Assembly: GCA_963784445.1 (NCBI GenBank)
Contig: CAWARO010000004.1
Span: 597,523-661,522 of the forward strand
DNA from: an uncultured Acidimicrobiia bacterium
Lineage (GTDB): Bacteria; Acidobacteriota; Vicinamibacteria; Vicinamibacterales; UBA2999
DNA length: 64,000 nt
Direction of reading: 5' to 3'
Position 1 is the stretch's first letter. The number at the start of each line of letters is the position of its first letter. The translations under genes were made by a program, and so were the position numbers. Under the pieces are notes generated by a model that did not search any database, was not told where the DNA came from, and saw only the letters and a list, made by a program, of their open reading frames with translations. Below, in pieces: positions 27,151 to 45,014 of the stretch.

Positions 27151-27162
27151 GTCAGTTGAACT

Positions 27163-27369: not shown

Positions 27370-27443
27370 GACTGGACGACGATCCTCGCATCGTCCGAAC
27401 GTCTACGCAAGACAGCAAAAGTTGCGTACTTGCAGGTCATAAA

Positions 27444-27720
27444 CGTTAACCAGAGGTCACGGAACGCGCCTTGTGTGGCCTTGGGCCGAGACGATATCTC
27501 CCTCCGTAAACTCTCGTCTCGCCGGAGAAATGTCGCTTGGCGCACCAATCACCCGGCCAACTCGGCCGGCAAGTCTTGGGCCTCAAACAGGGCCTGTCCC
27601 AGCCTCCGCTCCATTTCTCGGTAAGTGATCCGCGTCGGCTCGCTCGAACGTTTACTACGGGAGATATCGTCTCGTCCCGGCGGCCGCGTCGGGCGCGTTC
27701 TGTGACCTCCGTGGCTAACG
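27444..27720 (+). ncRNA. Structured intergenic repeat element, copy A
   Basis: Long nested stems (gaggtcacggaacgcgcc/ggcgcgttctgtgacctc; cgagacgatatctccc/gggagatatcgtctcg) around the core GGCC-AACTCG..CTCAAACAG-GGCC; homologous to copies B-D. Confidence 0.65.
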
Positions 27721-27730
27721 TACGGATGGG

Positions 27731-28966
27731 CTAAATCGAGCTGGTCTTGCCGCCTAACACGGCAATCACGCGATCGATGTCTTCATGCGTATTGAACACC
27801 GACACCGCAAGACGAATGCGATTCTCGTTGCCGATCACCGTTCCTGCAACCTTGCCCGCCTGCAGCATCTTCGACGTCGCCGGCGCGTCTTTCAGTTCGA
27901 ACGCCACGATCGGCGTCTCCGTCTCGCGAGGCGTGAGCGACTTGTAGCCGAGCGGCGGCAATTCGTTCTGCAGGCGATCGGTCAGCTGCTTGGCGTGCGT
28001 GCGAATGTTGGTGAGGCCGCACTTGTTGACGTAGTCGATGCCGGCGTTCACGCAGGCGGCGAGCACCACCGGGATGCCGCCGGTCTCGTATCGCGCCGCG
28101 CCGGGCATCGGCTCCCACGACAACTGCGCGCGGTTGAAGTTCGACACCTGGCGATGTCCGTAGCGCGTGGTCGGCAACACCGTGCCCTGCAGATCTTCAC
28201 GCACGTAAAGGAAGCCGATGCCGCGTTCGCCCATCAGCCACTTGTAGGTGCCAGACGAGGCGAAGTCGATCCCGAGCGCCTTGACGTCCACCGGCACCGC
28301 GCCCACCGCCTGGATGATGTCGGCAAACACCAGCGCGCCGCGCGCGTGCGCGATTGCGCTCACCGACTTGGCGTCGTGCATGAAGCCGTTGACGTTCGAC
28401 ACCAGCGCGATCGACACCAGCTTGGTGTTCTTGTCGATCGCCTTCGCCATGTCTTCCGGATCGATCTTCCAGTTCTTGTGCTTGACGATGCGAAGCTCGA
28501 CGCCTTTCTTCTCGATCTCCTTGTACATGTAGAGGGAGGTCGTGAAGTGGAGCTCGTCGATGACAATGTTAGAGCCCTTTTGTCTCGCGAGATCGAGGCC
28601 CAAGACGACGATGTTTTCGCCGTCGGAGGTGTTGGCGGTGTAGGCGATCTCGGTGGCCTTGGCGTTGATCATCGCGCCGAACTTCGCCTTCAGCGCGTCC
28701 TGCTGGCGGGCATTGAAGTCCGCGCGGCCCTCACCCGGCCCGAGCAGCCGATTGTCGATGACGCCCTTCATCGCATTGGCCGCGAACGTGCCAATCGGAT
28801 GCATCGCCGCTGAATTCAGGTACGTCTCACGCGAGACGGAAGGAAAGTCCGCTCGCACAGATGCTGGGAATATGCCGGGACGAGCGCTCGTTTGGGCAGC
28901 AGCAAACAGAGGCTTGGCCGCAATCGCGAGAGACCCGGCACCGATGAGAAATTCGCGACGATTCAT
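27731..28966 (-). CDS. Aminotransferase class V (cysteine desulfurase/selenocysteine lyase-like) with Tat signal
   Basis: MNRREF Tat motif; YLNSAA, DIIQAVG, SGTYKWLMG (PLP lysine), RYETG. Confidence 0.85.
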   Translation of the reverse strand: MNRREFLIGAGSLAIAAKPLFAAAQTSARPGIFPASVRADFPSVSRETYLNSAAMHPIGTFAANAMKGVIDNRLLGPGEGRADFNARQQDALKAKFGAMINAKATEIAYTANTSDGENIVVLGLDLARQKGSNIVIDELHFTTSLYMYKEIEKKGVELRIVKHKNWKIDPEDMAKAIDKNTKLVSIALVSNVNGFMHDAKSVSAIAHARGALVFADIIQAVGAVPVDVKALGIDFASSGTYKWLMGERGIGFLYVREDLQGTVLPTTRYGHRQVSNFNRAQLSWEPMPGAARYETGGIPVVLAACVNAGIDYVNKCGLTNIRTHAKQLTDRLQNELPPLGYKSLTPRETETPIVAFELKDAPATSKMLQAGKVAGTVIGNENRIRLAVSVFNTHEDIDRVIAVLGGKTSSI

Positions 28967-28978
28967 GACCGCTCCTTT

Positions 28979-29054
28979 GGCACCGGCACCCGGCACCCAC
29001 CCTTAGGCACCCCTACGCACCCGTACGCACCGTACGCACCTTGGCACCGGTGCC
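28979..29054. repeat. Degenerate short tandem repeat (gcacc / gtacgcacc)
   Basis: ggcaccggcacccggcaccc...tacgcacccgtacgcaccgtacgcacc; reverse-complement array at 46988-47038. Confidence 0.7.
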
Positions 29055-29058
29055 GTTC

Positions 29059-29961
29059 TTATGTGAGATCCCTAGTGGCCCACATGAAAGCTTGCACATC
29101 GATCATGTCTTTTGCCCCCAGCGGTGCAAGCTTTTCCAACAACTGGGCACCCATTCGTATCGTCTGGTCGTAGGTTTCCCAGTTCGGCGCCGAGTCATAT
29201 TTCAAGTCGTACGACATCCGCGCCGCCATCAATTCGGTATTCGTGGGCTTAAGTGCTATGTACCGCTTCGGGTCGGCGATGAAGGGCAGCAGCGTCACGA
29301 TCGGCCACGTGAACACTTTGCCGCCATCGGCCGGCAGTTTGCCCACGGCTTCTGCCATTGCCTTGAACGTCGGCAGGCCCGGGTTGGCGATGAACGCCAG
29401 CGTGTAGCCGAGCACCTGGGTGGCCGACTCGTCGCCCTTCACGAACGCCTTGTGCACGGCCTTCACTTCGAACGGCGACAGGATGTTGGTGGCGCGATAG
29501 ATGCCGTCGAGCGCGCTGGCGATCTCGGCGTGCTTGCCTTCATCCACCATCGCGGCGCCGCGGCCTTCGCCGAAGTTGGCGCTGAACACTTCCTGCGCGG
29601 CGCGCTTGTTGCGCAGATCGTTGTCGACGAACTTCTCGTCGGCGAACTTCGCGGGATAGGTTTCCTGGAACCACGCGATGGTTTCCTCGAGCGGATGTTG
29701 GATGTCCTTCACCTTCCGCTTCGAGACCTTGCGCGGCTTCGCGGGCCCGGTCTCAACCGCATCCAGCTCGGGATCGCTCTGCACGCTCGACTTGGTCAGC
29801 TGCGCCGCGTCTTCGCGCAGCTTGCGCTGCGGGCCCTGGGGTGAATTGCTCAGCGCAGGGAAGTGGATGATGGCGTAGGGGGAGGCGATCTCGATTACCT
29901 TGCCGCGCTTCCAAACGGTGTGCTCAACGAGCACACCGACATCATTCGGGGTCAAAACCAT
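29059..29961 (-). CDS. Hypothetical protein, DUF3553-like N-terminal SH3-type domain
   Basis: N-terminal 'VGVLVEHTVWKRGKV'; C-terminal 'TWPIVTLLPFIADP...DMIDVQAFMW'; good codon usage and a leaderless -10 box. Confidence 0.65.
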   Translation of the reverse strand: MVLTPNDVGVLVEHTVWKRGKVIEIASPYAIIHFPALSNSPQGPQRKLREDAAQLTKSSVQSDPELDAVETGPAKPRKVSKRKVKDIQHPLEETIAWFQETYPAKFADEKFVDNDLRNKRAAQEVFSANFGEGRGAAMVDEGKHAEIASALDGIYRATNILSPFEVKAVHKAFVKGDESATQVLGYTLAFIANPGLPTFKAMAEAVGKLPADGGKVFTWPIVTLLPFIADPKRYIALKPTNTELMAARMSYDLKYDSAPNWETYDQTIRMGAQLLEKLAPLGAKDMIDVQAFMWATRDLT

Positions 29962-29996
29962 CCGCGTATTCTACTTGCTTATAGAGGATCCGGTTC

Positions 29997-30224
29997 GTCA
30001 CATTGCGCCTTGGGCCGAGACGATGTCTCCCTCCGTAAACTCTCGTCTCGCCGGTCAAAGCTCACTCGGCGCATTGTGCTCTTGGGCCAACTCGCCGGCA
30101 CTCCTTGGGCTCAAACAGGGCCGACTCTGGCCTACGTTCGCTTTGTCGGTAAGTGATCTACGTCGGCTCGCTCGAACGTTTACTTCGGGAGGCATCGTCT
30201 CGTCCCGGCGGCCGCATGCGCGAC
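29997..30224 (+). ncRNA. Structured intergenic repeat element, copy B
   Basis: cgagacgatgtctccc/gggaggcatcgtctcg; gccggtcaaagc/gctttgtcggt; core GGCC-AACTCG..CTCAAACAG-GGCC. Confidence 0.65.
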
Positions 30225-30257
30225 ACCCGCGCGGACAGGACGCACACCATCAGCTGG

Positions 30258-30482
30258 AGCGTGAGCGAGCGCGCGTAGCGCGAGCGGGTATCTCGTGAAG
30301 CTCGCTTTCGACCGAGCCGATGCGCGTCTTTTGACCGACAAACGGAGCGTAGGCCAAGTCAGGCGCTGTTTGAGCCAAGGAGTGCGCGAGTTCGCCGGGC
30401 GCTTGGTGTGCCGAGCGACGTTTGACCGGCGAGAGGAGACGCGAGCGGAACGAGATACCCGATCGCGCGAAAGCGCGCGATC
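30258..30482 (-). ncRNA. Structured intergenic repeat element, copy C (inverted relative to B)
   Basis: Minus strand gggtatctcg/cgagataccc; gccggtcaaacg/cgtttgtcggt; core GGCG-AACTCG..CTCAAACAG-CGCC. Confidence 0.65.
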
Positions 30483-30558
30483 CATCGCAGGGTCAGTTAA
30501 CGAGAACTTGACAATTTCTTAGCATCTCGCCGCATCGCTCCGGATGTAGAACTGTGAG

Positions 30559-31946
30559 ATGAACTTCCTCTCAAAGATTCAATGGACTCTCGTGATCGTG
30601 TTTTTCAGTCACCGTCGCCGCGCCGGCGGCGCAAGAGGTGCGGCGTGGTGGGCCGCCGCCCGAGGTCCGCGCCGTGTTCGATGCGCTGCTCGAGGCGTTG
30701 AACGGCGGCAGCGAAGACGCCTGGGAGACGTTTGCGCAGGCGCGGTTCTCGCCGTCGTTCCTGCAGAAGCAGTCGCGCGCCGAGCGCGCGCAACTCTACC
30801 AGCAGCTGGTCACCAAGTTCGGCACCGTCGCCATCGAAGGGGTCAGACGCGAGGGACCGGACGCGCCGCTGCAGATGAACATCAAGGGCTCGAAGGCCGC
30901 CGGTGTGATTCTGCTGTCGCTCGATGCCGGCTCGCCGCCGCGCATCGACGACCTGCGATTGGGATCGGACGCGCCGCCAAGTGACGCCGTCGCCGGCGGC
31001 GTTTCGGCGCCGCCAATCGATCGCTCGATGACCTCCGCCGAAATCGATCGTCGTCTCGACGGCTATTTCACCAAGCTCGTGGCAGACGATGTGTTTTCGG
31101 GTGTGGCGCTGGTGGCGAGAAACGGCGTGCCGGTGTTCTTCAAGGGCTACGGCCTCGCCGACCGCGAGAAGAAGATCGCCAACACCATCCGCACCCGCTT
31201 CAATCTCGGCTCGATCAACAAGGCATTCACGCAGGTGGCGATTCACCAGCTGGTGGCCGCGGGCAAGCTGTCGTACTCAGACTCGCTCGGGAAATTCTTC
31301 CCCGACTATCCGCAGGCGGCCAGCCGTGCGGCCACGGTGGAGCAGTTGCTCGCTCATCGCGCCGGGTTGTCGGATTTCTTCGGTCCTGAGTTCAACCGCG
31401 CGCCCAAGTCGCAGTTCGCTTCAAACGCCGATTACTTCCGGTTCGTCGGCAGTCAGCCGCCGGCGTTCGCGCCAGGCGCGCGGGAGCAGTATTGCAACGG
31501 CTGCTACATCGCCCTCGGCGCCATCGTCGAACGCGTTTCGGGGATGCCGTATGAGAAATACGTCGCCGAGCAGGTGTTCGCGCGCGCCGAGATGACGAGC
31601 ACCGGGTATCCGCGCAGCGATCGCCCGGAGCCCGACATCGCGCAGGGCTACACTCGCCGCGGCGGCAGATGGCTCGTGGCAGAACAACCTTGCCATGCAC
31701 GGCGTCAGCGGCAGCGCCGCCGGCGGCGGCTATTCCACCGCGCTCGACTTGCTGACCTACGTGAAGGCGGTGAAAGCCGGCCGGTTCCCCAACGCCAATC
31801 CCGAGATGGGCATTGGCGGCGGCGCACCGGGCATCAATGCCATCATCGAAGCCCGCGGCGAGTGGACGGTGATCGTGCTGGCGAATCTCGACCCGCCGGC
31901 AGCCGGTCAGGTGGGCATCGCGATCGCAGATGCACTGGAGCGATGA
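30559..31946 (+). CDS. Serine hydrolase, beta-lactamase family; frameshifts near 30605 and 31670
   Basis: FNLGSINK (SxxK), LLAHRAG, QYCN, GGGYSTALDL, GGAPG across ORFs 30559/30638/31695. Confidence 0.82.
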
Positions 31947-32023
31947 TCAGACCCCGGCGCCAAGTGCGCGAAGCCCCGGCCGAAGTGCGCGAAGCCCCGG
32001 CACGGTCAGAGGCGGCGAGTTGC

Positions 32024-32527
32024 TTAACGCGAGCCCGTTGGCGGTGCATGCCTGGCGGAACGATAGCCTTCGAGCACAAAGATGCCGGCGCCGAGCATGA
32101 TGGCCATGTCCGCAACATTGAAAATGCCGGTCCGTAGTGGGCCGATCCCAACATTCATGAAGTCGATGACCATCCCATACGTGATCCGATCCAGGAGGTT
32201 GGACGCACCACCGGCTACGAAGAACGCGACGCCGACGAGAGACCGTCTGGGCCAGCGACTCCGCATGGCAACGACGGCCACGCCAAGTAAGAGCAACCCA
32301 TTTCCGACGCCGAAGACCGCTGTTCGGACCGGGAGCGGCCAATCTGCACCGAGACCCAGGAACGCGCCCGTATTCTCAACGTACTCGAGCCGAAAGGTGT
32401 CCGCCAGGAATGACCGGCTCGATGCTTCGGAGAGCGTGGTAGCGGCCACATGCTTGGTCACGCGGTCGCAGCCGATCGTGGCGCCGATCGCAATGAGCAG
32501 GACGAGCCGAAGGCCGATGCTGGTCAT
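32024..32527 (-). CDS. lspA: Lipoprotein signal peptidase II
   Basis: CDRVTK, ENTGAFLG, GGASNLLDRI, VIDF, FNVAD. Confidence 0.9.
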   Translation of the reverse strand: MTSIGLRLVLLIAIGATIGCDRVTKHVAATTLSEASSRSFLADTFRLEYVENTGAFLGLGADWPLPVRTAVFGVGNGLLLLGVAVVAMRSRWPRRSLVGVAFFVAGGASNLLDRITYGMVIDFMNVGIGPLRTGIFNVADMAIMLGAGIFVLEGYRSARHAPPTGSR

Positions 32528-32722
32528 CGTGGGGCTCCTCGACGCAGCCGAAACACCAGCGGTCTACGTCTCATCGAGCGTCGACGGCGTCGTCATCTAC
32601 ACCGCCAGCTCAAGAGCTGCGACGGTGCGCGAGGCCAATCATCAAGCTCCGTCTTCGTCATTCCCGTAGTCTAGCCCGATCCCCGATCCCCGATCCCGGC
32701 AAGTATCCATTAAAGTCTCCCC

Positions 32723-33748
32723 ATGGACGAATTCATCGAGGTCACTTTCCGCCGGAAGGACCGGCGGCTCCGGATCAAGCGCCAGGTGCCGGGCGGCGTC
32801 GAGTTCGACGAAACAGACCCGGTCGAGCGCACGGTCGGGATCCAGCTCGCCGCGAGGGGTGAAGCGACGCGTCAGCGGATGCGGCGGATCGGACAGGTGA
32901 AGGGGTGGGCGCCTGGTGAGTTCAAGCTGACCGTCTCGGTTGAAGACGGCAGCCTGGTGCTTCGCGGCGTCGACGCCGATTCACTGCCCGAAGGTCTCTA
33001 TGCGCTGACGATCGAAATTGAAGATGCGCGGTGCCGGCAGCGCAAGGTTGCCCTCGAGATCGAGCAGGACGGCAGCGCGCACGCGGCGTTCGATCTCGAC
33101 CAGGACGATCGCGAGGTCAGCGTCGACCTGGCCGAAGCAGACGAATCGATTCGTGCCGTGATTGAGGCCTCGCAGATCGATGGATTGCCCGGAACGGACT
33201 GGCTTGGCGCCCACAAGCGTCCCACGCGAAAAGCCTGTTTCCTGAACCTGCTCGCAAGCCTGCGGACCCGGCCGCTCGTTTCAGACGGCCTGATCAAACA
33301 CGTCGATAAAGCATTCGCCGTCTTCAACGATCGCGCGTTCATGCGGGTTGGTCTCGAGCTGCTGCCGGCGATTGAGGCCCTCGTGAAAGATCCGAAGCGC
33401 AGCTTTTACGCCGAGGGCGCCCCGACGGCGGACATTCACCAGCGCCTGCTCCGCGACCTGCCCGAGCCGACCGATGTGAAGGCGAAGTTCACCAAGGGCC
33501 TGCTGAGTTTTCGCGGTGAAGGAGGCCCGTCGCTGCAGATGGTGATTGCGGTGCCTCCCGTCGGTCTGCCCTACACCTACGCCGAGTTCGATCTCGATCT
33601 GGGCAATCCCTTGCAGGATGTGCTCGGCTTTGTCGTGCACATGGGCGAGCTGCTGGACGGCAAGCCGACCAATCATCTCGACCTGCGCCGCGAGCTCGCG
33701 AAGACGAGCGCGAAGCGATATCTCTACTACGACGTCGTGGCCGGCTAG
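32723..33748 (+). CDS. Hypothetical protein
   Basis: 341 aa ORF with genome-like codon usage and a TAAAGT box 6 nt upstream of the ATG; no recognised family. Confidence 0.7.
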   Translation: MDEFIEVTFRRKDRRLRIKRQVPGGVEFDETDPVERTVGIQLAARGEATRQRMRRIGQVKGWAPGEFKLTVSVEDGSLVLRGVDADSLPEGLYALTIEIEDARCRQRKVALEIEQDGSAHAAFDLDQDDREVSVDLAEADESIRAVIEASQIDGLPGTDWLGAHKRPTRKACFLNLLASLRTRPLVSDGLIKHVDKAFAVFNDRAFMRVGLELLPAIEALVKDPKRSFYAEGAPTADIHQRLLRDLPEPTDVKAKFTKGLLSFRGEGGPSLQMVIAVPPVGLPYTYAEFDLDLGNPLQDVLGFVVHMGELLDGKPTNHLDLRRELAKTSAKRYLYYDVVAG

Positions 33749-34320
33749 AAAGGGAGTGCGGGCAACTGAGTAGCGCGCTGAGGATGACCAGCTTAGAGAT
33801 TTCTTGAAGCGCGCCGAAAATCTATCAAATGGCGAGCATGTGTTGCTAGCCGTTCGGCTGGTTTAGGCCTTTCCAACATGGCCTTTCTGATGGCTCTTCG
33901 TTGCCTCGATTGCGACGACATCCCGCTCAAGGCTTCCGCAGTTCGTTCAGGGATCGGGCTGCCGAACAGACCAATTTCTGCGCACCAGTCGTTGAAGCTG
34001 CTCATGCACATGTCGTCAGGAAAGGACCGAATGGAGCGGAGATATCGTGCCAGATGCCTGAGGTGAACAATGGCAAAAGACGAACATACGTCAGTCAAAA
34101 TCGGTCAGCTGGCGCCGAAGTGTGCTCCGCGACACGCGGTCGACACCAACGGCGAAAAAACGGGCCGGCAGCGTCCTGACGCAGCGCCCCATAAGAGGAA
34201 GTAGGCTCGCGATTGTCGTACCGGGGTTGCCGATGACCCGGGGACGACCCCTTCATGCTGTAATTCTTGTCGAATTTCACGTTCCATCGGCGAATCGGTC
34301 TGTAATCTAGGACGCAGCCA

Positions 34321-34536
34321 GATCTGTCTGGTTTGCAGGAACCAACGCGACGAAGTGACGAACACGTCTTCGGCGCGCCATTCGGAGCCGTCGGCTTCAT
34401 CGTCCGATTTGTATGCAAGGCTTGCAACGACAAGCTCGGAATTCTGTCGATCACCTCGCAGATCGAGACCCACGTCTGTCCACGCACGGCAGACAGCGGG
34501 GCTGCCACCACGATGGCAGTCGATCAAGTCAGTTGA
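34321..34536 (+). pseudogene. HNH endonuclease remnant
   Basis: ICLVC (one frame) followed by SDEHVF....G......VCKACNDKLG (another frame) fits the CxxC..EH..CxxCN HNH pattern; lies in a lower-GC, gene-poor stretch. Confidence 0.55.
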
Positions 34537-34869
34537 CGACGCAATCAAGCGGACGGTAGTCCATTAAAGGCGAAGTTTGATGAACGCGAACTCGCATCCG
34601 TTGTCCAACCGCAGCGCGATCGAAATAAGCAACTGGTCGCCTACGCGAGTATATGCAGAAGACCATCGCAGACGGGTTCAAGGCCGAGTTCCGAAAACGG
34701 AAACAAGAGTTATCGAACGCGAATTGGCGGAAGTGGTCGAACAGTCGCTCGCTCTGTTCGACGCGGCGGATGTCACGTACCGACTTAGAAATTGGGCCTG
34801 CGAGACGACGACGCTCAAAGGATTTGGGTAATCGCACGTTGACTAAGCGTCGCCGGGCTTAGGAGCAGC

Positions 34870-36506
34870 TCACCATCGGAACGCAGTATTCGCTGCCGAC
34901 GCCGCCAAACGCCCGGCGAGCCCGCTGGCGACCTCTTGATCCAGATACGGAATATCAACCCGGTGCGAGAGTTCGCCCGCGCCGGCCGTGTCGACCCGCA
35001 CGCCGGACATCGCCGCGCGGCGATCGAAGGGCGACTCGTGCATCGTCACCGCCTGGATCTTGTTCACGCGCGCGAGGGTGGTCTGCTGCCAGATCCAGCC
35101 GCTGCGCATCATCACCACCTCATCGCCCTCCGCCCAGCCGAGATGCGCCACGTACTGCCGGGCGTTGATGATGGACCAGAGCAGCGTGATCATCGCCACG
35201 CCGATGGCGCCCCAGCCGATAAGCAGCGCCGCGATCAGCGTGACGAACCCGCTGAACACCAGCATCGGCTTCACCGCGCGCGCGAAGGCGCGGGGGTGCA
35301 GCGGTTGCCAGTTGACGGCGTCGAGCTCGAAGCCAGGCACGACCTGCTGAAGCAGGTGGGGCAGAGCCTCCCGCCGGATCAACGGCGCGAGCCATTCGCG
35401 CCCCCGTGCGGATGACGACTGTTTGCCCTTCCCCCCGCCGCCCGCGGTGGCCACGCGGACCGTGGCGCGATCGAGCCAGCGGTGGAAAGGACCGGCGCTA
35501 AACGTAATAGTCTGCACGCGCCTGATCGGGACGGTGGCGGCCACCTTCGTGAAGAGGCCGTACTCGCTGCGCAGGTCCTCGCCCACGCGCGTCAGGCGGA
35601 AATCATAGAGGCGCACGAACGCCCAGATCATCGAGATGACGCGCACCAGGAGCAGGAACGCAATGAACCCCGCCAGGCCGATACCGAGGCGTTCCCACGG
35701 GAACTGACCGTCTTCGAAGAAGCTTCGAAACAGGTTGCGAAAGAATCCGCGTCCCGACGTCACTCCGGCACGCTCGAACAGGATCCCCGACAACCTGTTC
35801 ATCAGGCCCGACTCCCACGCCAGGCCCATCCCGGCGCCGATCAGGACCATCCCTTTGTTTTCGAGAAGGCCACAGAGCAGCAGCTCGCGAAGCGACAGAT
35901 GGACGAGTGTCTCGCCGCGCGGGGTCTCTTCCGTCACGTCCGAAGGCGGGACTAAAGTCCCGCCTCTACGTACGGACTCATCGTCCGAAGGCGGGACTTC
36001 CACCTCCGCTCCTGGCGCGACTGAAGGCGGACTGAAGTCCCGCCTCTACGTGCGAAGACGCGCTGGCGCATCTCCTCGAACGCCGCCTTCGGCAGCACGC
36101 TCAACCGCGCTTCTTCCTCTTTGCCCCCGCCGGTTTCCACGCGCACTTCGACGACCCCGAAGAAACGATGGAACAGGTTCTGGACGGCGTCGACGTTCTG
36201 AATCCGCGAATACGGAATATGGCGCTCGTTGCGAAAGAGGATGCCTGACCGGATCACCAGCTCCTTGTCCTCGTAGCGAAGACGGAACGACAGGTAGCGC
36301 GTGATGGAGAGGACCACCGCGGGAACGAACGGCACGAGCAGCCACACTTCCCAGCCGCTCGGCAGGCGCCCGAAATTGCCGCCGGCCCCGCCCGTCGATC
36401 GCGACATCCCCACGAGCACGAGCAGCGCCGGCAGCGCGAACCGCTTGGCGTGCTTCGCCAGCTCGAACAGCAGCGTCGTGGGATGCAGCCGCAGCTCAGA
36501 CGGCAT
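34870..36506 (-). CDS. YdbT-like membrane protein with bacterial PH domains; frameshift near 36030 inside a REP insertion
   Basis: RLHP, IRSGILFRNERHIPYSRIQNV, RVQTI, RVDTAG repeats. Confidence 0.85.
35945..36049 (-). repeat. Cluster of 2-3 GTAG-type REP palindromes within ydbT-like gene
   Basis: ggcgggactaaagtcccgcctctac (35945), partial ggcgggacttc (35990), ggcggactgaagtcccgcctctac (36026). Confidence 0.75.
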
Positions 36507-37035: not shown

Positions 37036-37059
37036 GGCGTGAATTCTACGCTCAACCGG

Positions 37060-37500: not shown

Positions 37501-37553
37501 CGCCTGCCCTGAGCGATAGTCGAAGGGTAGCATCGTCCTCCGAGGCCAGATCC

Positions 37554-37569
37554 TGCGAACGACGCGCCA
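37554..37569 (-). promoter_or_regulatory. Putative sigma54-type -24/-12 promoter
   Basis: Minus strand tGG-cgcgtcgttc-GCa (GG-N10-GC), inside a block shared with 25901-25975. Confidence 0.55.
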
Positions 37570-37706
37570 TGTGAAATAGGGCAGAATCCCGAGCGATCCG
37601 GACGGCGACTGCTTTGCGATTGGCTAATCATGCGTACGCGCCAGTCGAGCGATGTGGCAGATTTGGCACTGATGGCCGAGAGCTGAAACCGCCTCAATTC
37701 GATGTT

Positions 37707-38583
37707 TTAGAACCGTCGCGCCAACACCAGCCGATGATCGCGTGACTCGCACTGCGAGGACGGCATCGTCTGGCCGACGTGCTCAATCGATCCGTCAAAT
37801 GCGAGCGTGATACTGCTCGTACTCACTCGACTGACGGTTCCCGCCGCAGATCCGATGAACCGCACCGACCGATCGCTTTCCAGGATACTCGACGAGACCG
37901 GGCTCGTCGCCATGGCCAGTTCGCAGGCTGATGCTCGCATAGTCGCCCGCCACGCCCACTCCGAAACTGCGGAACAATTCCGGGACGTCAGGGCTGTGCA
38001 GCCGCCCGTTGAACCCAACCACGTCACTGGTGCCCTCGCGTGTCCGCGCCGTCAGCGTCACGGCATAACTGCGCGAGCGCGATTCCACCGGCAACGCGGA
38101 ACACGTCGCGGCCGCGGTGATGGTCAGCGTGTAGTCGCCGGCGAGCTCGAGCGCCGGCGCCAGCGGACGCACGTAGAACCCCAACCACGGCCGCGCGTTG
38201 TTCTGGCACTGTGCCACACTGCAGGTCCACGTCTGCGTCAGCGTCTCGTAACCATCTTTCGTTACGCGAAAGCGCGTCGCGCTGTCGAAAAATCCAGTGA
38301 GGTTCACAGCGCCGTCGCTATCCACGACGGCGGAGGCACCGGCGGAAGCGCCATCGAGCACCTCGACGCGGGCATCAACGAGAGGACGGTATGCCGTGTC
38401 TGTCACGAATCCCCAGATCCCTGTCACGGACGTCGTCTGATTACTCCCGGGCGTTGGCGCGGTGATGACGGATGGGCCCGTGGGGGCTGTGGGCGACATC
38501 GAGGGCGAGGTTCCCGAGCAACCCGCCGCCAGCACGCTCAAACACACACTCGCTACGAGTATCAGCGCGGCTTTCTTCAACAT
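37707..38583 (-). CDS. Lipoprotein with carboxypeptidase-regulatory-like domain; frameshift near 37880
   Basis: Lipobox LAAGC; 'G.VTD...RPL..ARVEV'; paralogue of 38603..39511. Confidence 0.7.
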
Positions 38584-38602
38584 GGCAGCTCCATTCGAAA
38601 CA

Positions 38603-39511
38603 TCACCGGCGCGTCAATACGAGTTCGTGTTTGCGCCACGAACAGATGGCGCTCGAGACCGCGCGGCTCGCTGGGCACTCAAATCGGCCATTCGCGTCGA
38701 GCGGCGCCAGGCCCGGCTTGAGCTCGCAATGCACGATCTCCGCTTCAAATGCCATTGTGATTGTCGACACACCGCTCGGTCCCAGAGTGGCAGTCCCGAG
38801 ACCGCCGATCGCCAAATAGGCATTCGCATCCGTTTGCTCGACGAAACCCGGCTGGCCATGCAGGTCGCCGGTCACCATCTCCATGTAGTCTCCGGCGACG
38901 TTGAACCACATCCCCTTCCACGAGACCTCGCTCACGAGATTTGCGCCACTGGCGGTACCGAGGAAACTTGTGGTGGCCGGCGTTGGCTGGTTCGGTAGCG
39001 CCTCGATCCTCGCCGAGTAAGTCCGCCGGCGCGCATGCTCGGGCAACATCGTGCACGATGCGGCCGCGGTAATCGTGAACATGTAGTCGCCGGCAATGTT
39101 TGCGGGCGGCACCGGCGATCCCAGAGCGAAGTAGACCCAATGGTGCGGGTTGCACCGCTCGCAGTACGGCGTCAGGGTCTTCACCTCCGCGTGGTGCCCA
39201 TCCTTCGTCGCACGAAACTGTGTGGAGGAGTCGAACTGTCCGAAGATGTTGTATTGCCCGTCAGCCACCGTCGTGACCTTCAGCCCCGCGCTTGGACCGC
39301 TCATCACTTCAACCGTAGCTCCGGCGAGGGGACGGTTTCCCGTGTCGTAGACCTTGCCGCTGACGGCAATGCCCACGGGCGCAACCACGGGCGCGACCAC
39401 GGTGGTGGGTGTTGGTGCCGTGGGATTGAGATTGCCGTTCGCGGCGTCATTACAGGCGGCGCTCCCGAATGCGCCAAGGATCAGCAATAGAACCGCGTGA
39501 TGTGGTCGCAT
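38603..39511 (-). CDS. Lipoprotein with carboxypeptidase-regulatory-like domain
   Basis: Lipobox SAAC; SGKVYDTGNRPLAGATVEV, FRATKDG, AGDY.FTITAAASC..LP shared with its neighbour. Confidence 0.75.
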   Translation of the reverse strand: MRPHHAVLLLILGAFGSAACNDAANGNLNPTAPTPTTVVAPVVAPVGIAVSGKVYDTGNRPLAGATVEVMSGPSAGLKVTTVADGQYNIFGQFDSSTQFRATKDGHHAEVKTLTPYCERCNPHHWVYFALGSPVPPANIAGDYMFTITAAASCTMLPEHARRRTYSARIEALPNQPTPATTSFLGTASGANLVSEVSWKGMWFNVAGDYMEMVTGDLHGQPGFVEQTDANAYLAIGGLGTATLGPSGVSTITMAFEAEIVHCELKPGLAPLDANGRFECPASRAVSSAICSWRKHELVLTRR

Positions 39512-39564
39512 GGTGGAAGCAGCATATGGGTACGAAACAGGGAAAGCATCACCTAAAGGAGTCG

Positions 39565-40473
39565 CTACACGCCTAGCGCTGACTTCGGGTTGATCGCGTC
39601 CGGATCCTTCACTGCAAACGACTCCGGCTTCGGCCTGGCGCCGTGCCGCGCTGCCCACACGCGCGTGAACTCGGCGCCAAAGAGCAGGATCTGGCACGAG
39701 TAATAGACCCATAGCAGCAGGATCATCATCGACCCCGCCGCGCCGTAACTCGAGGCAATGGCGCTCTGGCCGAGATACAAGCCAATCACCTGCTGGCCAA
39801 TGGTGAACAGCACCGCCGTCACCACCGCGCCCATCGTCACGTCGCGCCACCGCAGCCGCACGTCGGGCAGGAAACGAAACAACAACGCGAACAGGCCCGT
39901 CGTCACAACGATTGAGACCAGCGTGTTGAAGATGCTCCACAGGAGCGCGTTGGCGGGGGACAAGTTGAAGAGCCAGGTGTTGAGTGCGGCCAGTGCGGCG
40001 GTGACCGTGAGTGAGACCAGCAGCAGAAAGCCAATCGCCACCACCAGGCCAAACGAGCGGACGCGATCCATCACGAAGGCGTAGAAGTGACCCTTCGGAT
40101 TCGGCTTCACCCGCCAGATAGTGTTGAGCGCGACTTGCAACTCGAGGAAGGCGCCGGTGGCCGCGATCAGAAAGGCGATGCCGCCGATGAGGGTAGCCAA
40201 GATCCCGGCTCGACGCTGGCTGGCGCCTTCGAGAAGGCTTTGCACGGCGAGCGCGCCCTCGCGTCCGACGAGGCGCTCGAGCTGGCCGACGATCTCGCCG
40301 CGCACGGCCTCCGCGCCGAACACCAGCCCGGCGATCGCGGTCGCCACCAGCAGGATCGGCGCGATCGCGAATAGCGTGTAGTAGGAGAGCGACGCGCCCA
40401 TTCGCGTGCAGTCATCGTCCCACCAGGCACGCCCCGCGGACCCGAGCATTCGCAGGATCACCGGCGTGCGCAT
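39565..40473 (-). CDS. YihY/virulence factor BrkB family membrane protein
   Basis: GASLSYYTLFAIAP, ALNTIW, YGAAGS..LLLWVYYS.QILLFGAE. Confidence 0.92.
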   Translation of the reverse strand: MRTPVILRMLGSAGRAWWDDDCTRMGASLSYYTLFAIAPILLVATAIAGLVFGAEAVRGEIVGQLERLVGREGALAVQSLLEGASQRRAGILATLIGGIAFLIAATGAFLELQVALNTIWRVKPNPKGHFYAFVMDRVRSFGLVVAIGFLLLVSLTVTAALAALNTWLFNLSPANALLWSIFNTLVSIVVTTGLFALLFRFLPDVRLRWRDVTMGAVVTAVLFTIGQQVIGLYLGQSAIASSYGAAGSMMILLLWVYYSCQILLFGAEFTRVWAARHGARPKPESFAVKDPDAINPKSALGV

Positions 40474-40568
40474 CACTCCAACTATGGCGAACGCGTCTCG
40501 CCGCAGACTGTGCACTTGTGCACACCTGCGCCCCGGTCGCGGGCACTACAGTCGAGGGGTGTGTATGA

Positions 40569-42383
40569 ATGGATGACTCGTCCAATCACTTAAAGCACTG
40601 GGTGGCGTTCGCCGGCGCAGTCCTGGTGATCGTCGTGTTGTATTGGGCGCAGGCGGTGTTCGTGCCCATTGCGCTCGCGGCGCTGCTGTCGTTCGTGTTG
40701 TCGACGCCGGTCAGCTGGCTCGAACGGTGGCTGGGCCGCGTCCCGGCCGTGCTCATCGTGGTCACGCTGGTGTTCGTCGTGCTCGGTCTCGGCGGCTGGG
40801 GCCTGGCGCGGCAGATGAACCACCTTGCCGACGACTTGCCCCGCTACCGCGTCAACATCCGGGCGAAGATTGCCGACGTCCGCGGCGCCGGCAAGGGCGG
40901 CACCGTCGAGAAGCTGCAAGAGACGATCGACGAGATCAAGACGGACCTCGAGAAGACCGGTGCGGTGCAGGGGAAAACGCCACAGGAGGTGATCGTCGCC
41001 CCCGAGTCCGCGTCCGGCATCCCTGGTTTTACGTGGCTGGGTCCGCTGATGGGACCGCTGGGAACCGCGGCCCTCGTGTTGGCGCTCGTGATCTTCATGC
41101 TGCTCGAACGCCGCGACTTGCGCGATCGACTGATCGGGCTGGTGGGGCACGGCCGCCTGACCGTCACGACGAAGGCGTTCGATGAAGCGAGCAGCCGCGT
41201 CAGCCGCCAGCTGTTGATGCAATCGCTCGTCAATGCCGTGTATGGCACCATCGCCGGACTCGGGCTGTACTATCTCGGGGTGCCGTACCCGCTGGTGTGG
41301 GGCGTGCTCGGCGCGGCACTTCGCTTCATCCCATACCTCGGTCCCGTCCTCGGCGCCGGCGCGCCAATCATCGTCAGCCTCGCCGCCCTGCCAGGGTGGG
41401 TCGATTCGTTCTGGGTCATCGCCATGTTCGCCGTCCTCGAGGTGTTCACGAACATGGTGCTCGAGACCTGGCTCTACGCGGGGGCAGCCGGCATCTCGCA
41501 AGTGGCGCTGCTCATGTCGGTGGCCTTTTGGACATGGTTGTGGGGACCACTTGGCCTGTTGATGGCGACACCGCTGACCGTGTGCTTCGTGGTGCTCGGC
41601 AAGCACGTGCCTGGACTCTCCTTTGTGGGGACGCTGATGGCCGACACGCCGGCGCTTGCGCCCGAGTACGGTTATTACCAGCGCCTGCTGGCCCGCGATC
41701 CGGGCGAGGCGGCCGATTTGATCGATCGGCATGTCAAGAACGAACCATGGGGAACCGTCTACGACGCGCTGTTGCTGCCGGCCCTCAACTACGCCGAGCG
41801 CGATCGCCTGGAACAGAGACTCTCGGTGGATGAAGAGAACGCCGTGATCGAGGCGACGCGCGAATTGTTGACCGATGCGGCGGACTCGATCCGCCGCCAA
41901 CAATCGCCATCCGCCGAGCCGATCGAGCCGGCCACGCTGGCCGGGCCCCGCGAGCCGTTACGTGTGCTCGGCTATGCGGCCAATGGCGCCGCCGACGAGC
42001 TCGCGCTGACGATGCTCGCGCATTCGGTGGAGGATCTGCCGATCAGCATTGAGATGACCAAGACGCGCGTGCTCGCTTCCGAGTTGGTGTCGATCGTGCG
42101 CGAGCAAGGCGTTTCGATTGTCTGCCTCGCCGACCTGCCGCCGAGCCCCCCGTCCAAGACGCGGTATCTCGTCATGCGCTTGCACGCCGCGTTGCCTGAC
42201 GTGCGCATCCTGGTGGGGCGGTGGGCGCCACCGGCGCTCGCGGATGAGAGCACGCAGGCGTTGCGGGACGCCGGCGCCACGCTGGTAGCGTCGACACTGG
42301 CCGAAACGCGGGAGTATCTCAGTGGACTGGTCGAGATTCCGCGGATCCCCGCGCCAGAGCCCGAACTAGCGGCCGTCGAGTAG
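40569..42383 (+). CDS. AI-2E family transporter with C-terminal extension
   Basis: PIALAALLSFVL, LRFIPYLGP, FWTWLWGPLGLLMATPLTVC. Confidence 0.9.
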   Translation: MDDSSNHLKHWVAFAGAVLVIVVLYWAQAVFVPIALAALLSFVLSTPVSWLERWLGRVPAVLIVVTLVFVVLGLGGWGLARQMNHLADDLPRYRVNIRAKIADVRGAGKGGTVEKLQETIDEIKTDLEKTGAVQGKTPQEVIVAPESASGIPGFTWLGPLMGPLGTAALVLALVIFMLLERRDLRDRLIGLVGHGRLTVTTKAFDEASSRVSRQLLMQSLVNAVYGTIAGLGLYYLGVPYPLVWGVLGAALRFIPYLGPVLGAGAPIIVSLAALPGWVDSFWVIAMFAVLEVFTNMVLETWLYAGAAGISQVALLMSVAFWTWLWGPLGLLMATPLTVCFVVLGKHVPGLSFVGTLMADTPALAPEYGYYQRLLARDPGEAADLIDRHVKNEPWGTVYDALLLPALNYAERDRLEQRLSVDEENAVIEATRELLTDAADSIRRQQSPSAEPIEPATLAGPREPLRVLGYAANGAADELALTMLAHSVEDLPISIEMTKTRVLASELVSIVREQGVSIVCLADLPPSPPSKTRYLVMRLHAALPDVRILVGRWAPPALADESTQALRDAGATLVASTLAETREYLSGLVEIPRIPAPEPELAAVE

Positions 42384-42393
42384 AATCACGCAC

Positions 42394-44800
42394 ATGTCCG
42401 ATTGGACCGCCGCCTTCACCTACGCGTTCCGCTCGCTCCGCCGGCAGCCGACCTTCGTAATCGTCGCTGTGCTGACTCTGGCGCTGGGCATTGGCGCGAA
42501 TACCGCGATCTTCAGCGTCATCAAGACCGTGATCCTGAACCCCCTGCCCTACGAGGACCCCGAGAAGATTGCCATCCTGTGGGAGGTCAATCCCGAAGGC
42601 AACCAGGGGCCGGTGTCGACCCCGACGTTCGACGACTGGAAGCGCGACGCGAAGACCTTCGAATCGATGGCCGCGTATCGGCACGTGGACTTCTCGTTCA
42701 AGGGGACGGGCGATCCGCAGAACGTGCCTGGGCTGCGCGCCACGCCGGATCTCTTCACCGTGCTCAAGAGCAACGCCGCGCTCGGGCGCACGTTTACGCG
42801 CGACGAGATGGTGTTCGGCGCCGATCGCGTGGTCGTGCTCAGCCACGGCTTCTGGTCCCGCGCGCTGGGGGCGGATGCGTCGGTAGTTGGCCGCACCATT
42901 CAACTCGACTCGGTGCCGTACACGGTGGTCGGCGTGATGCCGTCAAACTTCGAATTTCCCACCAGCACCAAGGTGGAAGTGTGGACGCCACTGGCGTTCA
43001 ATCCGAAAGACATGCACGGTGCATCGCGGCGGGCGCGGATGAATACCGTGGTGGGCCGGATTGCGCAGGGCGCCGCTGCGCCGGAGGCGCAGCAAGAGAT
43101 AGCTGTGCTCGCGGCCCGCATCGCAAGCGAATACAAAGACAGCAACGCCGGCTGGACGGCGCGCGTGATTCCAGCGCACGAGCAGCTGGTGGGCGCGTCG
43201 CGGCCGGCGCTGATGGTGCTTGATGGGGGCAGTGGGATTCCTGCTGCTGATTGTCTGCGCCAACATGGCCAACCTGCTGCTGGCGCGGCTGGCGAGCCGG
43301 CGGCGCGAGATGGCCGTGCGCGCGGCGTTGGGTGCGAGCCGTTGGGAAGTGGCGCGGCCGATCGTCGCGGAGAGCTTGATCCTTTCGGCCGCCGGTGGCG
43401 TGCTCGGACTCGTGGCCGCGTTTGGCGTGCTGCGATTGATCGCGAGCCTTCCGGAAGCGCGACTGCCACGCATCGAGGCCATGCAGCTCGATGGCGGCGT
43501 GCTGCTGTTCACGAGCGTCATCTCAATCGGCGTTGCGCTCGCGTTTGGGTTGCTGCCGGCACTGCACGCATCGCGACAGGACCTGCGCGACAACATGCAG
43601 GAGTCATCGGGATCGACCGCTAGCCCGTATGCGCGGAGGCTCTTGAGCGGACTCGTGGTGATCGAAGTCGCGCTCGCGCTCGTGCTGCTCGTGGGCGCGG
43701 GACTGATGACGCGCAGCTTCACCAAGCTGCTGCAGGTGAATCCCGGCTTCGACTCGTCGAACCTCATCGCCGCGCGCGTGCTGTTGCCGTCCACGAAGTA
43801 TCAGCGACCGACGATCGTGCGCTTCTATGAGGATGTGATCGAACGCCTGCGCCGCGCCCCGGGCGTGGTGAACGCCTCGGCCGTGTCGGCGATGCCGTTG
43901 CACGACGTGGGCGTCGCCGGCTCTTTGCCGTTCAACGTCGAAGGACAACAGCCGCCCAAGACCGAAGACCCGATGGCCGACGTCCGCATGGTGGCGCCGG
44001 GCTACTTCGAGACGATGAAGATCGAGCTGCTCGAGGGACGCTTCCTCGACGAACGCGACGACATGCCGGCGCCGAGAACCGCGCTGATCAACCAGACGAT
44101 GGCGCGGCGGTACTTCCCGGATCGGAGCCCGCTGGGACAGATCATCCAGAACCCGCACGGCAAGGCCGAGGTGGTGGGCATCGTTGCCGACGTTCATAAC
44201 CAGGGCTTGGATAGGGAGCCGAGGAAGCAGGTTTACCTGCCGCTTCGTCAGAGCCCGACCGCCGGAATGGCCGTGGTGGCGCGCACGAATCAGGACCCAG
44301 CGGCGATGGCCAACACGCTCCAGCGGGTGATCTGGGAAGTCGATCCGGGTCAGCCGATCTACGAGCTGTCGACGATGGATCAGATTCTGGCGCGGGCGGT
44401 GTTCCTGCCGCGGCTATCGACGACGTTGCTCGCGACGTTTGCGCTGGCGGCGCTGCTGCTGGCCGCGCTTGGCATCTACGGAGTGCTGTCGTATTCGGTG
44501 TCGCAGCGGACCAGGGAGATAGGTCTGCGCATGGCGCTCGGCGCATCGGGCGGCAACACCATCGCGATGATCGTGCGGAACAGCGTGATCATGGTCGCCA
44601 TTGGCGGTGTCATCGGTCTCATTGCCGCGACGCTGCTGGCGCGGTCGATGGAAGGCATCCTGTTCGGCGTGGAGCCGTTCGACGTCCCGTCATTCACGAT
44701 GGCGGCGGTCACACTGTTGATTGCAGGAGTGCTCGCGAGCCTGCTGCCGGCGCTGCGCACGACACGCGTTGATCCGGTAGTCGCGTTACGTGAACAGTAA
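42394..44800 (+). CDS. ADOP-type duplicated MacB/FtsX ABC permease; frameshift near 43222
   Basis: LALGIGANTAIFS, LLLIVCANMANLLLAR, GIYGVLSYSVSQRTREIGLRMALGA, RVDPVVALR. Confidence 0.92.
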
Positions 44801-45014
44801 GCGCGCGTAACGCGAGCAGGTGTCTCGCGCAGCGAGCTTTCGACCGAGCCGACACACGTCTTTTGACCGACAAAGCGAACGGAGGCCAAGACAGGCGCTG
44901 TTTGAGCGCGGCAGTGCGCGAGTTCGCCGAGTGCTTGGTGTGCCGAGTGAGCTTTGACCGGCGAGAGGAGACGCTCGCGGAGCGAGACACCTGATCGCGC
45001 TTAAGCGCGCTTAC
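44797..45014 (-). ncRNA. Structured intergenic repeat element, copy D
   Basis: Minus strand caggtgtctcgc/gcgagacacctg; gccggtcaaagc/gctttgtcggt; core GGCG-AACTCG..CTCAAACAG-CGCC; termini gtaagcgcgc/gcgcgcttac. Confidence 0.65.

What the first reader, a model, noticed from the sequence alone, without database searches (positions are those of the whole stretch)
27444..45014. Dispersed family of ~210-280 nt structured elements with covarying stems, an invariant internal loop and a possible pseudoknot (4 copies)
Seen: copies at 27444-27720(+), 29997-30224(+), 30258-30482(-) and 44797-45014(-) are diverged in sequence but keep the same pairings. The inner stem reads gccg-g-agaaatg/catttct-cggt (A), gccggtcaaagc/gctttgtcggt (B, D) and gccggtcaaacg/cgtttgtcggt (C). 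The closing stem is GGCC/GGCC (A, B) or GGCG/CGCC (C, D) around invariant AACUCG...CUCAAACAG. Outer stems are gcgagc/gctcgc (D) versus gctcgc/gcgagc (C), and gatatctccc/gggagatatc (A) versus gatgtctccc/gggaggcatc (B). A segment inside the inner stem (tcggcacac in D, tcggcg in B, ttggcgc in A) is complementary to a segment 3' of that stem (gtgtgtcgg, cgtcgg, gcgtcgg), i.e. a pseudoknot with an A-U/G-C swap; it is weak in C. G-U pairs favour the stated strands. Inference: selection acts on a folded single strand, so this is a multicopy ncRNA, a ribozyme-like element or a MITE/REPIN moved in trans, with two subfamilies (A/B and C/D). No transposase or reverse transcriptase lies nearby, and I do not recognise the family.
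Basis: partly seen in the sequence, partly recalled or inferred. Interest (0 to 1): 0.85.

Follow-up and report, generated by a model that had tools for sequence, protein, structure and literature searches.

The report
Rod-shaped structured repeat family in Acidobacteriota
The four copies belong to a family of about 210-base intergenic repeats, restricted to one bacterial family, that fold into a long hairpin kept intact by many compensatory changes; they resemble REPIN-type mobile repeats but match no described family and have no identified enzyme.

Summary
The four copies are real. They are 4 of 16 full copies in this 6.4-Mb genome. Related copies occur in 28 of 36 congeners and in two further genera of the same family. 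None was found in 137 genomes of 18 other families of the class.

On 125 distinct copies, a nested 40-pair fold is 95.8% paired against 77.7% in shuffles. Both sides changed in 33 pairs.

- The pseudoknot scores no better than shuffles.
- The "invariant" internal loop belongs to only one subfamily.
- The folded strand is most likely the opposite one. It shows 350 G·U against 75 A·C. Two near-invariant mismatch pairs read as tandem G·A only on that strand.

The family shows no Rfam match, no target-site duplication, no conserved termini and no linked transposase.

Copies tend to form polar inverted doublets, 13 against 1. They show presence/absence between species and a 92–96% identical burst in one relative.

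My best reading is a REPIN-like structured repeat selected as a folded single strand. Whether that strand is RNA or ssDNA is unresolved.

The parts
27473..27688 (-). Copy A, 216-nt core.
   Evidence: Model R1 scores 196 bits. The copy is included in alignments A2, A5 and A8.
27432..27731 (.). The 300-nt block containing copy A and its outer arms. It is absent at the orthologous site of relative G013.
   Evidence: G013:C161 joins query positions 732 and 1033 at a single coordinate; I read the boundaries by eye. The outer arms (about 27444-27472 and 27689-27720) resemble the ends of another repeat family, F3.
30002..30216 (-). Copy B, the left member of an inverted doublet.
   Evidence: Model R1 scores 205 bits. 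The doublet is also present at the same site in G013.
30228..30267 (+). Linker between copies B and C. It equals the first ~40 nt of F2, a distantly related ~228-nt repeat.
   Evidence: blastn gives 97.5% identity over 40 nt to the start of the F2 copy at C4:742466.
30267..30479 (+). Copy C, the right member of the doublet.
   Evidence: Model R1 scores 228 bits.
44799..45011 (+). Copy D. It starts at the stop codon of the upstream permease-like gene and ends at the stop codon of a convergent gene.
   Evidence: Model R1 scores 225 bits. As RNA, this strand folds at -111 kcal/mol (z -4.9) and the other strand at -103.6 (z -5.3).
44840..44851 (+). 5' arm of the conserved double tandem-G.A helix in copy D (TCGACCGAGCCG). 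The same arm lies at 27636-27647 in A, 30164-30175 in B and 30308-30319 in C.
   Evidence: Coordinates are. The mismatches are G.A in 115-119 and A.G in 119-122 of 125 copies, flanked by covarying Watson-Crick pairs.
44959..44971 (+). 3' arm of the same helix in copy D (CGGCGAGAGGAGA). The same arm lies at 27512-27524 in A, 30041-30053 in B and 30427-30439 in C.

Best explanation
This is a REPIN-like structured intergenic repeat. The unit is a rod-shaped hairpin of about 210 nt, in effect a very large REP.

Anatomy:
- The closing stem is free to vary in sequence as long as it pairs.
- A strongly conserved middle helix carries two tandem G.A mismatches and a one-base bulge.
- Next comes a short A/U-rich helix.
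- The apical domain differs between subfamilies.

How it most likely works:
- The form under selection is one folded single strand.
- The conserved tandem-G.A helix is most likely the docking site of a protein (inferred).
- Copies have multiplied and moved within the genomes of one acidobacterial family. They leave no target-site duplication (shown for four young copies and for copy A's site).
- They often travel joined at one particular end to a second hairpin module, forming polar inverted doublets (shown).
- The mechanism of spread is inferred. I favour a single-stranded DNA intermediate handled in trans, as proposed for REPINs and IS200/IS605 elements. No enzyme has been identified.
- Resident copies are not decaying relics. 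At shared sites their stems change less than their loops (shown on two close pairs).
- The fold therefore probably also matters where it sits, for instance as RNA in neighbouring transcripts (inferred).
For: Family and fold:
- There are 16 full copies in the genome.
- The fold on 125 copies is 95.8% paired against 77.7% in shuffles. Of 40 pairs, 33 changed on both sides, and the covariation score is 0.494 against at most 0.057 for slid partners.

Strand:
- Consensus energy is -50.8 against -37.7 kcal/mol.
- One pair reads GC55/GU37/AU27 only on the inferred strand.
- The tandem mismatches are G.A/A.G in 115-122 of 125 copies. On the other strand they would be U.C/C.U.
- The inferred strand is purine-rich in all four window copies.

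Mobility:
- 28 of 36 congeners carry the family, with very different numbers of matches.
- Copy A is missing at the orthologous site in G013.
- At copy D's site, G013 carries a different, internally deleted copy in the other orientation.
- At the C5:204495 site, three relatives carry an F3 repeat instead.
- The dus/neuB spacer holds the element in opposite orientations in different species.
- In G003 a 353-nt composite (the element plus a second hairpin) sits at 4 loci. The copies are 92-93% identical, with sharp ends and no direct repeat at the flanks.
- G031 has a tandem array with a 417-nt period.

Doublets: 13 tail-to-tail against 1 head-to-head, binomial p 0.002.

Constraint in place: in two close same-site pairs, 4 of 160 paired columns differ against 26 of 258 unpaired columns, Fisher p 0.003.

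Precedent: the REPIN paper reports common compensatory changes on the two sides of the hairpin, and tandem clusters (PMC3116915; I read passages only).
Against: - No enzyme is linked to the family. The three RAYT-like Y1 genes of this genome are flanked by another repeat.
- Y1 genes occur in 35 of 37 genomes of the genus with no relation to the number of copies. For example, G003 has one Y1 gene and the most copies, while G008 has copies but no Y1 hit.
- In the listed hits, no Y1 gene shares a contig neighbourhood with a copy.
- The termini are the most variable part, unlike REP or TIR elements, where the ends are the conserved recognition sites.
- Within this genome the closest copies are only 88% identical, so there is no sign of recent movement here.
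- Stems evolving more slowly than loops at fixed sites fits a host function as well as, or better than, a selfish element.
- The strand asymmetry cannot tell RNA from single-stranded DNA.
That is not significant, and it is not the direction an IS608-like model would predict for the folding strand.
Confidence: 0.5

Rival explanations
1. This is a family of structured RNAs: stand-alone small RNA genes, or leader/trailer elements of neighbouring mRNAs. The inferred strand is the RNA and the tandem-G.A helix binds a protein. On this reading the dispersal is only how the genes were duplicated.
For: - G.U is tolerated and A.C avoided on one strand.
- Tandem sheared G.A pairs flanked by covarying pairs are typical of folded RNA. 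That they are typical is established knowledge; the counts are.
- Stems are conserved at fixed sites.
- When a copy lies within 150 nt upstream of a gene start, the inferred strand is co-directional in 40 cases against 19.
- Several copies lie 18-45 nt from the called start codon, leaving no room for a promoter in between.
- The closing stem varies freely while still pairing, as in many ncRNAs.
Against: - There is no shared upstream sequence, no sigma-70-like box inside the GC-rich element, and no U-tract after it (read by eye).
- Between co-directional genes the orientation is 23 against 20.
- Next to gene ends the inferred strand is antisense in 66 cases against 30. Doublet polarity explains this better than transcription does.
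- The same spacer holds the element in both orientations in different species.
- Copy number runs from none to dozens among congeners.
- My gene calls are crude (GC3-based ORFs), so distances to starts are uncertain.
Confidence: 0.3
2. This is an ordinary MITE, a deletion derivative of a DDE-transposase insertion sequence. The hairpin would be a by-product of long terminal inverted repeats, and the 'covariation' would reflect both ends tracking one transposase.
For: The overall inverted-repeat shape, a size within the MITE range, the intergenic location with convergent gene pairs preferred 20 to 2, and chimeras with the ends of other repeat families.
Against: - No target-site duplication is seen at four young copies or at copy A's filled/empty site.
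- The termini are the least conserved part.
- Covariation runs through the whole arm, not only the ends.
- Both arms carry GA on the same strand, which two inverted copies of one double-stranded site cannot produce.
- Mismatches and a bulge are conserved in 92-98% of copies.
- No longer element with the same ends was found. The wide pairs enclose unrelated orphan ORFs without Pfam hits.
Confidence: 0.08
3. There is no selection on structure. Templated correction within quasi-palindromes (strand switching during replication) keeps the arms complementary.
For: Such correction is known in bacteria (established knowledge, recalled). It would generate paired double changes and slow apparent stem divergence.
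Against: It would erase mismatches and bulges. Yet the two tandem mismatches are kept in 115-122 of 125 copies, and the asymmetric loops are conserved. It also predicts no G.U against A.C asymmetry, but the observed ratio is 350:75.
Confidence: 0.03

Closest known systems
REPINs (REP doublets forming hairpins) with RAYT transposases
   Same: Both are non-coding intergenic repeats that persist vertically in a lineage. Both fold as a hairpin in single-stranded DNA or RNA, and compensatory changes across the hairpin are common. Inverted doublets are the favoured arrangement, with singlets and tandem clusters also present. Neither leaves a target-site duplication. The REPIN features are from PMC3116915 (passages read); the features here are.
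   Different: Here the unit is about 210 nt, whereas a REP is 20-40 nt and a REPIN about 100 nt. The conserved part lies in the middle of the arms, not at the ends. There is no GTAG/CGTC-type tag that holds across copies. The RAYT-like genes of this genome are flanked by another repeat, and their number does not track copy number. The apical domain is elaborate and specific to each subfamily.
ERIC/IRU and similar transcribed palindromic repeats of enterobacteria (recalled, not looked up here)
   Same: Both are imperfect palindromes of more than 100 nt in intergenic regions, thought to act as RNA hairpins within neighbouring transcripts. Both have patchy copy numbers among related species.
   Different: There is no sequence relationship. 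ERIC-type elements are reported with TA duplications in some species (recalled), and none is seen here. The conserved tandem-G.A helix and the doublet polarity seen here are not features I know from ERIC.
IS200/IS605-derived palindrome-associated elements and their single-strand transposition
   Same: Neither has terminal inverted repeats in the strict sense or a target-site duplication. Both have folded ends on one strand. In both, two different hairpin modules can travel together, which here means the element plus F2 or F4.
   Different: No IS200-type TnpA/TnpB pair is present (no TnpB hit). The flanks of four young copies show no conserved target tetranucleotide. The hairpins are ten times longer.
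Integron attC sites
   Same: In both, structure is conserved more than sequence. Both are recognised as a folded single strand, with unpaired bases marking the strand. Some pairs here enclose orphan low-GC ORFs.
   Different: attC sites are 57-141 nt with R/L boxes (GTTRRRY) and lie as direct repeats next to an integrase (recalled). Here the size, motifs and inverted arrangement do not fit.

Membership tests
Any Rfam family (including Acido-1, Acido-Lenti-1, Flavo-1, HEARO and ribozymes) | A match to the family's covariance model at its gathering score | tested here: not met
   There were 0 matches in the 64-kb window and 0 in 9 loci holding other subfamilies, F2 and F4. At E up to 10 over 27000-31000 there were only chance matches. 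The best was MIR918 at 41 bits against a 268-bit cut-off, caused by the inverted B/C pair.
REPIN/RAYT system | The repeat unit is a short REP palindrome (20-40 nt) with a conserved end tag | tested here: not met
   The unit is about 210 nt. Its ends vary (GCGC-, GGCC- and copy-specific closing stems), and no tetranucleotide is kept across copies.
REPIN/RAYT system | Inverted doublets that fold into a hairpin, with compensatory changes | tested here: met
   There are 13 tail-to-tail against 1 head-to-head pairs. Both sides changed in 33 of 40 pairs.
REPIN/RAYT system | A RAYT gene flanked by the same repeats, usually single-copy per repeat family | tested here: not met
   The three Y1_Tnp loci are flanked by a different repeat. 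In the listed hits, no Y1 gene lies next to a copy. The nearest case is 17 kb away in G031.
Classical MITE (DDE transposon derivative) | Conserved terminal inverted repeats shared with an autonomous element | tested here: not met
   The termini are the most variable part. A search for solitary ends found only fragments fused to other repeats. No longer element with a transposase was found.
Classical MITE (DDE transposon derivative) | Target-site duplication | tested here: not met
   The flanks of four 92-93% identical copies in G003 show no direct repeat. Copy A's filled/empty comparison shows none that is unambiguous.
IS200/IS605-type single-strand elements | A Y1 TnpA (with or without TnpB) and insertion next to a fixed short target | tested here: inconclusive
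   Y1 genes exist but look RAYT-like (about 300 aa, each with its own REPs). There is no TnpB. The flanks of four young copies share no motif.
Retron ncRNA | An adjacent reverse transcriptase | tested here: not met
   No RVT_1 match in a genome scored 100% complete.
IS110 bridge/seek RNA | An adjacent DEDD recombinase | tested here: not met
   No DEDD_Tnp_IS110 match in the genome.

The most novel reading that the evidence does not exclude
The element is the folded single-strand substrate of an enzyme system not yet described. In this reading the double tandem-G.A helix is the recognition site. The polar inverted doublet is the mobile unit and moves without a target duplication. It can take up about 1 kb of foreign DNA between its two halves, as in the three wide doublets that enclose unrelated low-GC orphan genes. 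Alternatively, the same fold is a new class of protein-binding RNA that has been copied around the genome.
Probability: 0.2. Interest if true: 0.8.

Novelty: new variant of a known kind. Interest (0 to 1): 0.55.

Why it matters
Structured intergenic repeats are well studied in proteobacteria (REP, REPIN, ERIC) but barely at all in soil Acidobacteriota. This family offers an unusually clean case:
- More than 100 diverged copies show covariation in 33 of 40 pairs.
- A conserved non-canonical motif and a clear strand preference both say that a single strand is the working form.
- The family combines features that current classes keep apart. It has variable ends, a conserved internal motif, polar doublets, no duplication and no linked enzyme.

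If the partner protein were found, it could reveal either a new way of moving DNA through folded single strands or a new RNA-protein system in a major soil phylum.

For annotation, the covariance model would also mark these elements and prevent false ORF calls over them. Spurious ORFs of about 100 aa overlap all four window copies.

Tried and rejected
- **Expression.** `look-up of sequencing runs` listed no RNA holder. Two soil runs of uncertain kind were laid. They gave only short contigs, 90-99% alike, from relatives, over genes and elements alike, so they say nothing on transcription or strand.
- **Whole-collection scan of genome contigs.** It served only to show that records of relatives are titled as Acidobacteriota/Bryobacterales MAGs, some with discordant labels.
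- **Plasmids and phages.** The search was blank in plasmids and phages. It was also blank in 2.9 million viral contigs, using a two-arm pattern that does find 122 of my 368 loci. The first version of that pattern had too short a gap for this genome's subfamily. One malformed pattern was rejected as a syntax slip and corrected.
- **Recurrent neighbour gene.** I found none among 30 loci beyond a few orthologous sites.
- **RAYT link.** Rejected.
- **Reverse transcriptase, TnpB and IS110.** Absent.
- **Replication-strand bias.** 11-12 of 16, not significant, and the skew is weak.
- **Orientation against neighbouring genes.** The biases at gene starts and gene ends point in opposite senses, and doublet polarity explains them best. 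Between tandem genes the count is 23 against 20. Gene calls were crude GC3-based ORFs, and 75 of 140 copies were unclear.
- **Apical-domain consensus.** `RNAalifold` on the subfamily failed to give a structure. I fell back on direct counts of the closing stem.
- **Cargo ORFs in wide doublets.** They have no Pfam family and no similarity to each other. I did not pursue them.
- **Literature.** Four searches listed no paper on such repeats in Acidobacteriota. I saw only listings, plus passages of PMC3116915. Supplements were not consulted.

**Rows dropped.**
- Of 138 `nhmmer` hits, 130 covered at least 150 model positions.
- I left out five of these before alignment as atypical or partial: L082, L044, L136, L063:151-376 and L014.
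- The locus from the unpublished genome G035 (L043) was kept out of all alignments.
- G035 is still counted in the tallies.
- Match counts per genome are capped at 39 scored candidates and include opposite-strand echoes, so they are not copy numbers.

Full report
**The observation.**
There are no others.
- The copies are only 67% identical per column, yet they align end to end.
- The window lies in a genome of 6.42 Mb in 6 contigs with 64% G+C. That genome holds 16 full copies. It also holds five copies of F2, a distantly related repeat of about 228 nt.
- Rfam has nothing at its gathering scores, either in the window or in nine loci with other subfamilies. At E up to 10 there is only noise.

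**Distribution.**
- A model built from the 16 copies finds the family in 28 of 36 other genomes of the genus. It finds none in 24 genomes of other families of the order.
- A broader model built from 125 copies finds the family in 4 of 13 other genomes of the same taxonomic family, covering three genera. It finds none in 137 genomes of 18 other families of the class.
- Record titles of relatives name Acidobacteriota/Bryobacterales MAGs.
- Nothing similar turned up in plasmids, phages or viral contigs.

**The fold.**
- I collected 125 distinct copies: the 16 from this genome plus copies from 27 congeners. Five atypical rows and the locus from the unpublished genome were left out.
- MAFFT aligned them on sequence alone.
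- A nested structure of 40 pairs is paired in 95.8% of 4985 cells, against 77.7% when partners are shuffled (0 of 500 shuffles reach it).
- Both sides changed in 33 pairs, giving 838 such cells against 207 in shuffles.
- Sliding the partners by 1-3 columns drops pairing to 32-43% and the covariation score from 0.494 to at most 0.057.
- The proposed pseudoknot does not hold. It pairs at 68.9% against 69.0% in shuffles. Where its columns vary, they follow other partners.

**Which strand.**
The complement has 350 G.U and 75 A.C.
- The best-conserved helix contains two 2x2 internal loops. Pairs that covary freely sit on either side of them (CG59/GC53/AU5, CG99/UA22, CG88/GC28).
- Tandem G.A pairs closed by C-G are a stable, common motif of folded nucleic acids, whereas tandem pyrimidine mismatches are not. 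That is established knowledge.
- Both arms carry GA on the same strand, so this is not a pair of inverted double-stranded binding sites.
- I therefore take the complement as the folding strand: minus for A and B, plus for C and D.
- None of this tells RNA from single-stranded DNA.

**Anatomy.**
- Running from the ends inward, the closing stem has a sequence that differs from copy to copy and even extends with copy-specific complementary bases.
- A second helix follows, then the tandem-G.A helix with a one-base bulge, then an A/U-rich helix (GACAAAnn/nnUUUGUC).
- The apical domain comes in at least three unrelated versions.
- Copy A is longer only because it carries outer arms like the ends of F3, a third repeat family.

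**Signs of movement.**
- Copy A, with its arms (window 27432-27731), is absent from the orthologous spacer of the closest relative, G013. The flanking genes there are 91-93% identical.
- The B/C doublet is present in G013 at the same site.
- After the same stop codon where D sits, G013 has a different, internally deleted copy in the other orientation, followed by F2.
- Where this genome has a copy at C5:204495, three relatives have an F3 element.
- The dus/neuB spacer holds the element in opposite orientations in different species.
- Within this genome the closest copies are 88% identical. In G003, by contrast, a group of dispersed copies is 94-96% identical.
- Those G003 copies are part of a 353-nt composite: the element plus a second 150-nt hairpin. 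It is found at four loci at 92-93% identity, with sharp boundaries and no flanking direct repeat.
- G031 has a tandem array with a period of 417 nt.

**Doublets.**
- Among neighbouring copies within 1.6 kb there are 13 tail-to-tail pairs, 1 head-to-head pair and 7 direct pairs. One of the 13 is the G013 ortholog of B/C.
F2 and the G003 partner hairpin also attach at that end.
- Nine of the 13 pairs are 2-71 nt apart.
- The other four enclose 0.5-1.1 kb. For three of these I found 56-61% G+C and unrelated ORFs of 172-218 aa without Pfam hits.
- This polarity explains the orientation statistics of 140 copies.
  - Upstream of gene starts: 40 against 19.
  - Downstream of gene ends: 66 against 30.
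  - Between co-directional genes there is no preference: 23 against 20.
- Convergent spacers are preferred to divergent ones, 20 to 2. Gene calls here were crude.

**Enzymes.**
- The genome has no reverse transcriptase, TnpB or IS110 recombinase hit.
- It has three RAYT-like Y1 genes, each flanked by its own, different repeat.
- Y1 genes are in 35 of 37 genomes of the genus and do not track the element.
- No gene family recurs next to copies.

**Constraint in place.**
- For two close pairs of copies at the same site in two species, paired columns differ at 4 of 160 positions and unpaired columns at 26 of 258 (Fisher p 0.003).
- More distant same-site pairs show 5-11 pairs changed on both sides and still paired.
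- Resident copies therefore look constrained, not decaying.

**Reading.**
- The family behaves like a REPIN writ large. It is a hairpin-forming, vertically persistent repeat with compensatory changes, doublets and tandem clusters. The REPIN paper reports these features (PMC3116915; passages read).
- It fails the defining REPIN features of a short tagged REP and a RAYT flanked by the same repeat.
- It fails the MITE features of conserved terminal repeats and a target duplication.
- I put 0.5 on a REPIN-like structured repeat selected as a folded single strand, spread by an unidentified trans-acting enzyme and probably also useful where it sits.
- I put 0.3 on a family of structured RNAs, 0.08 on an ordinary MITE, and 0.03 on templated palindrome correction without selection.
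- The remainder is unassigned.

**What is new.**
- The kind of object is known. This variant is not described in Rfam or in the papers that four searches listed.
- It combines variable ends, a conserved internal non-canonical motif, a strand preference, polar doublets and the absence of any linked enzyme.

**Limits.**
- There are no expression data.
- Relatives are different species, so empty sites are few.
- Shuffle controls do not correct for phylogeny.
- The tallies include one unpublished genome (G035). No alignment or specific claim rests on it.

Noticed in passing
Own genome, e.g. C6:61467 and C4:850570; upstream of several copies: A REP-like hairpin, GGGCGGGAC-N4-GTCCCGCC, occurs 71 times in the genome. 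It lies within 40-220 nt of two copies of the element.
   Followed up: partly
L046, L047, L048 (G000:C4:415278, C4:311478, C6:867556): There are three RAYT-like Y1 transposase genes of about 240-300 aa. Each is flanked by 59-71-nt inverted arrays of its own repeat (CGCTAAGTTGGGGGCAGGCCGCG type for two of them). This is a separate REP/RAYT system.
   Followed up: partly
Own genome, e.g. C1:421912/422013, C3:601148/601249, C6:821468/821558; outer arms of copy A at window 27444-27472 and 27689-27720: F3 is a third repeat family, with ends ...CTCCGTGGTTAACGTACGTG in inverted pairs about 100 nt apart and an A/T-rich centre (TTTAGAAAA). I counted 22 ends. The same family occupies the C5:204495 spacer in three relatives.
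   Followed up: partly
G000:C4:742466-742693, C6:58453-58681, C6:481209-481458, C3:396-636 of L013 (C3:663396), C5:336063; window 30228-30267: F2 is a hairpin repeat of about 228 nt with ends GGACGCACACCATCAGCT/AGCTGATGGTGTGTGTCC. It is a distant inverted relative of the element and usually sits directly after a copy.
   Followed up: partly
G000:C1:135730-136806; L073:366-1258; L040:1710-2666: Wide inverted doublets enclose 0.9-1.1 kb of lower-GC DNA (56-61%). Each encloses one orphan ORF (214, 172 and 218 aa). The ORFs are unrelated to each other and have no Pfam hit. The 214-aa one looks like a membrane protein.
   Followed up: partly
L135 (G031:C4:740513-742495): A tandem array of five 417-nt units, each holding a short (about 170-nt) version of the element. 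The inner units are 99% identical.
   Followed up: no
window 27196-27624, 29863-30298, 30180-30485, 44709-44990: Open reading frames of 93-142 aa overlap all four copies. Given the indels and the covariation they are almost certainly spurious, but automatic annotation could call them as genes.
   Followed up: no
L040:909-1616(-): An ORF next to one doublet in G008 has a weak Gp49-like (DUF891) match, E 8e-5, just under the Pfam cut-off. This family is often the toxin half of a phage-derived toxin-antitoxin pair (the family's role is recalled).
   Followed up: no
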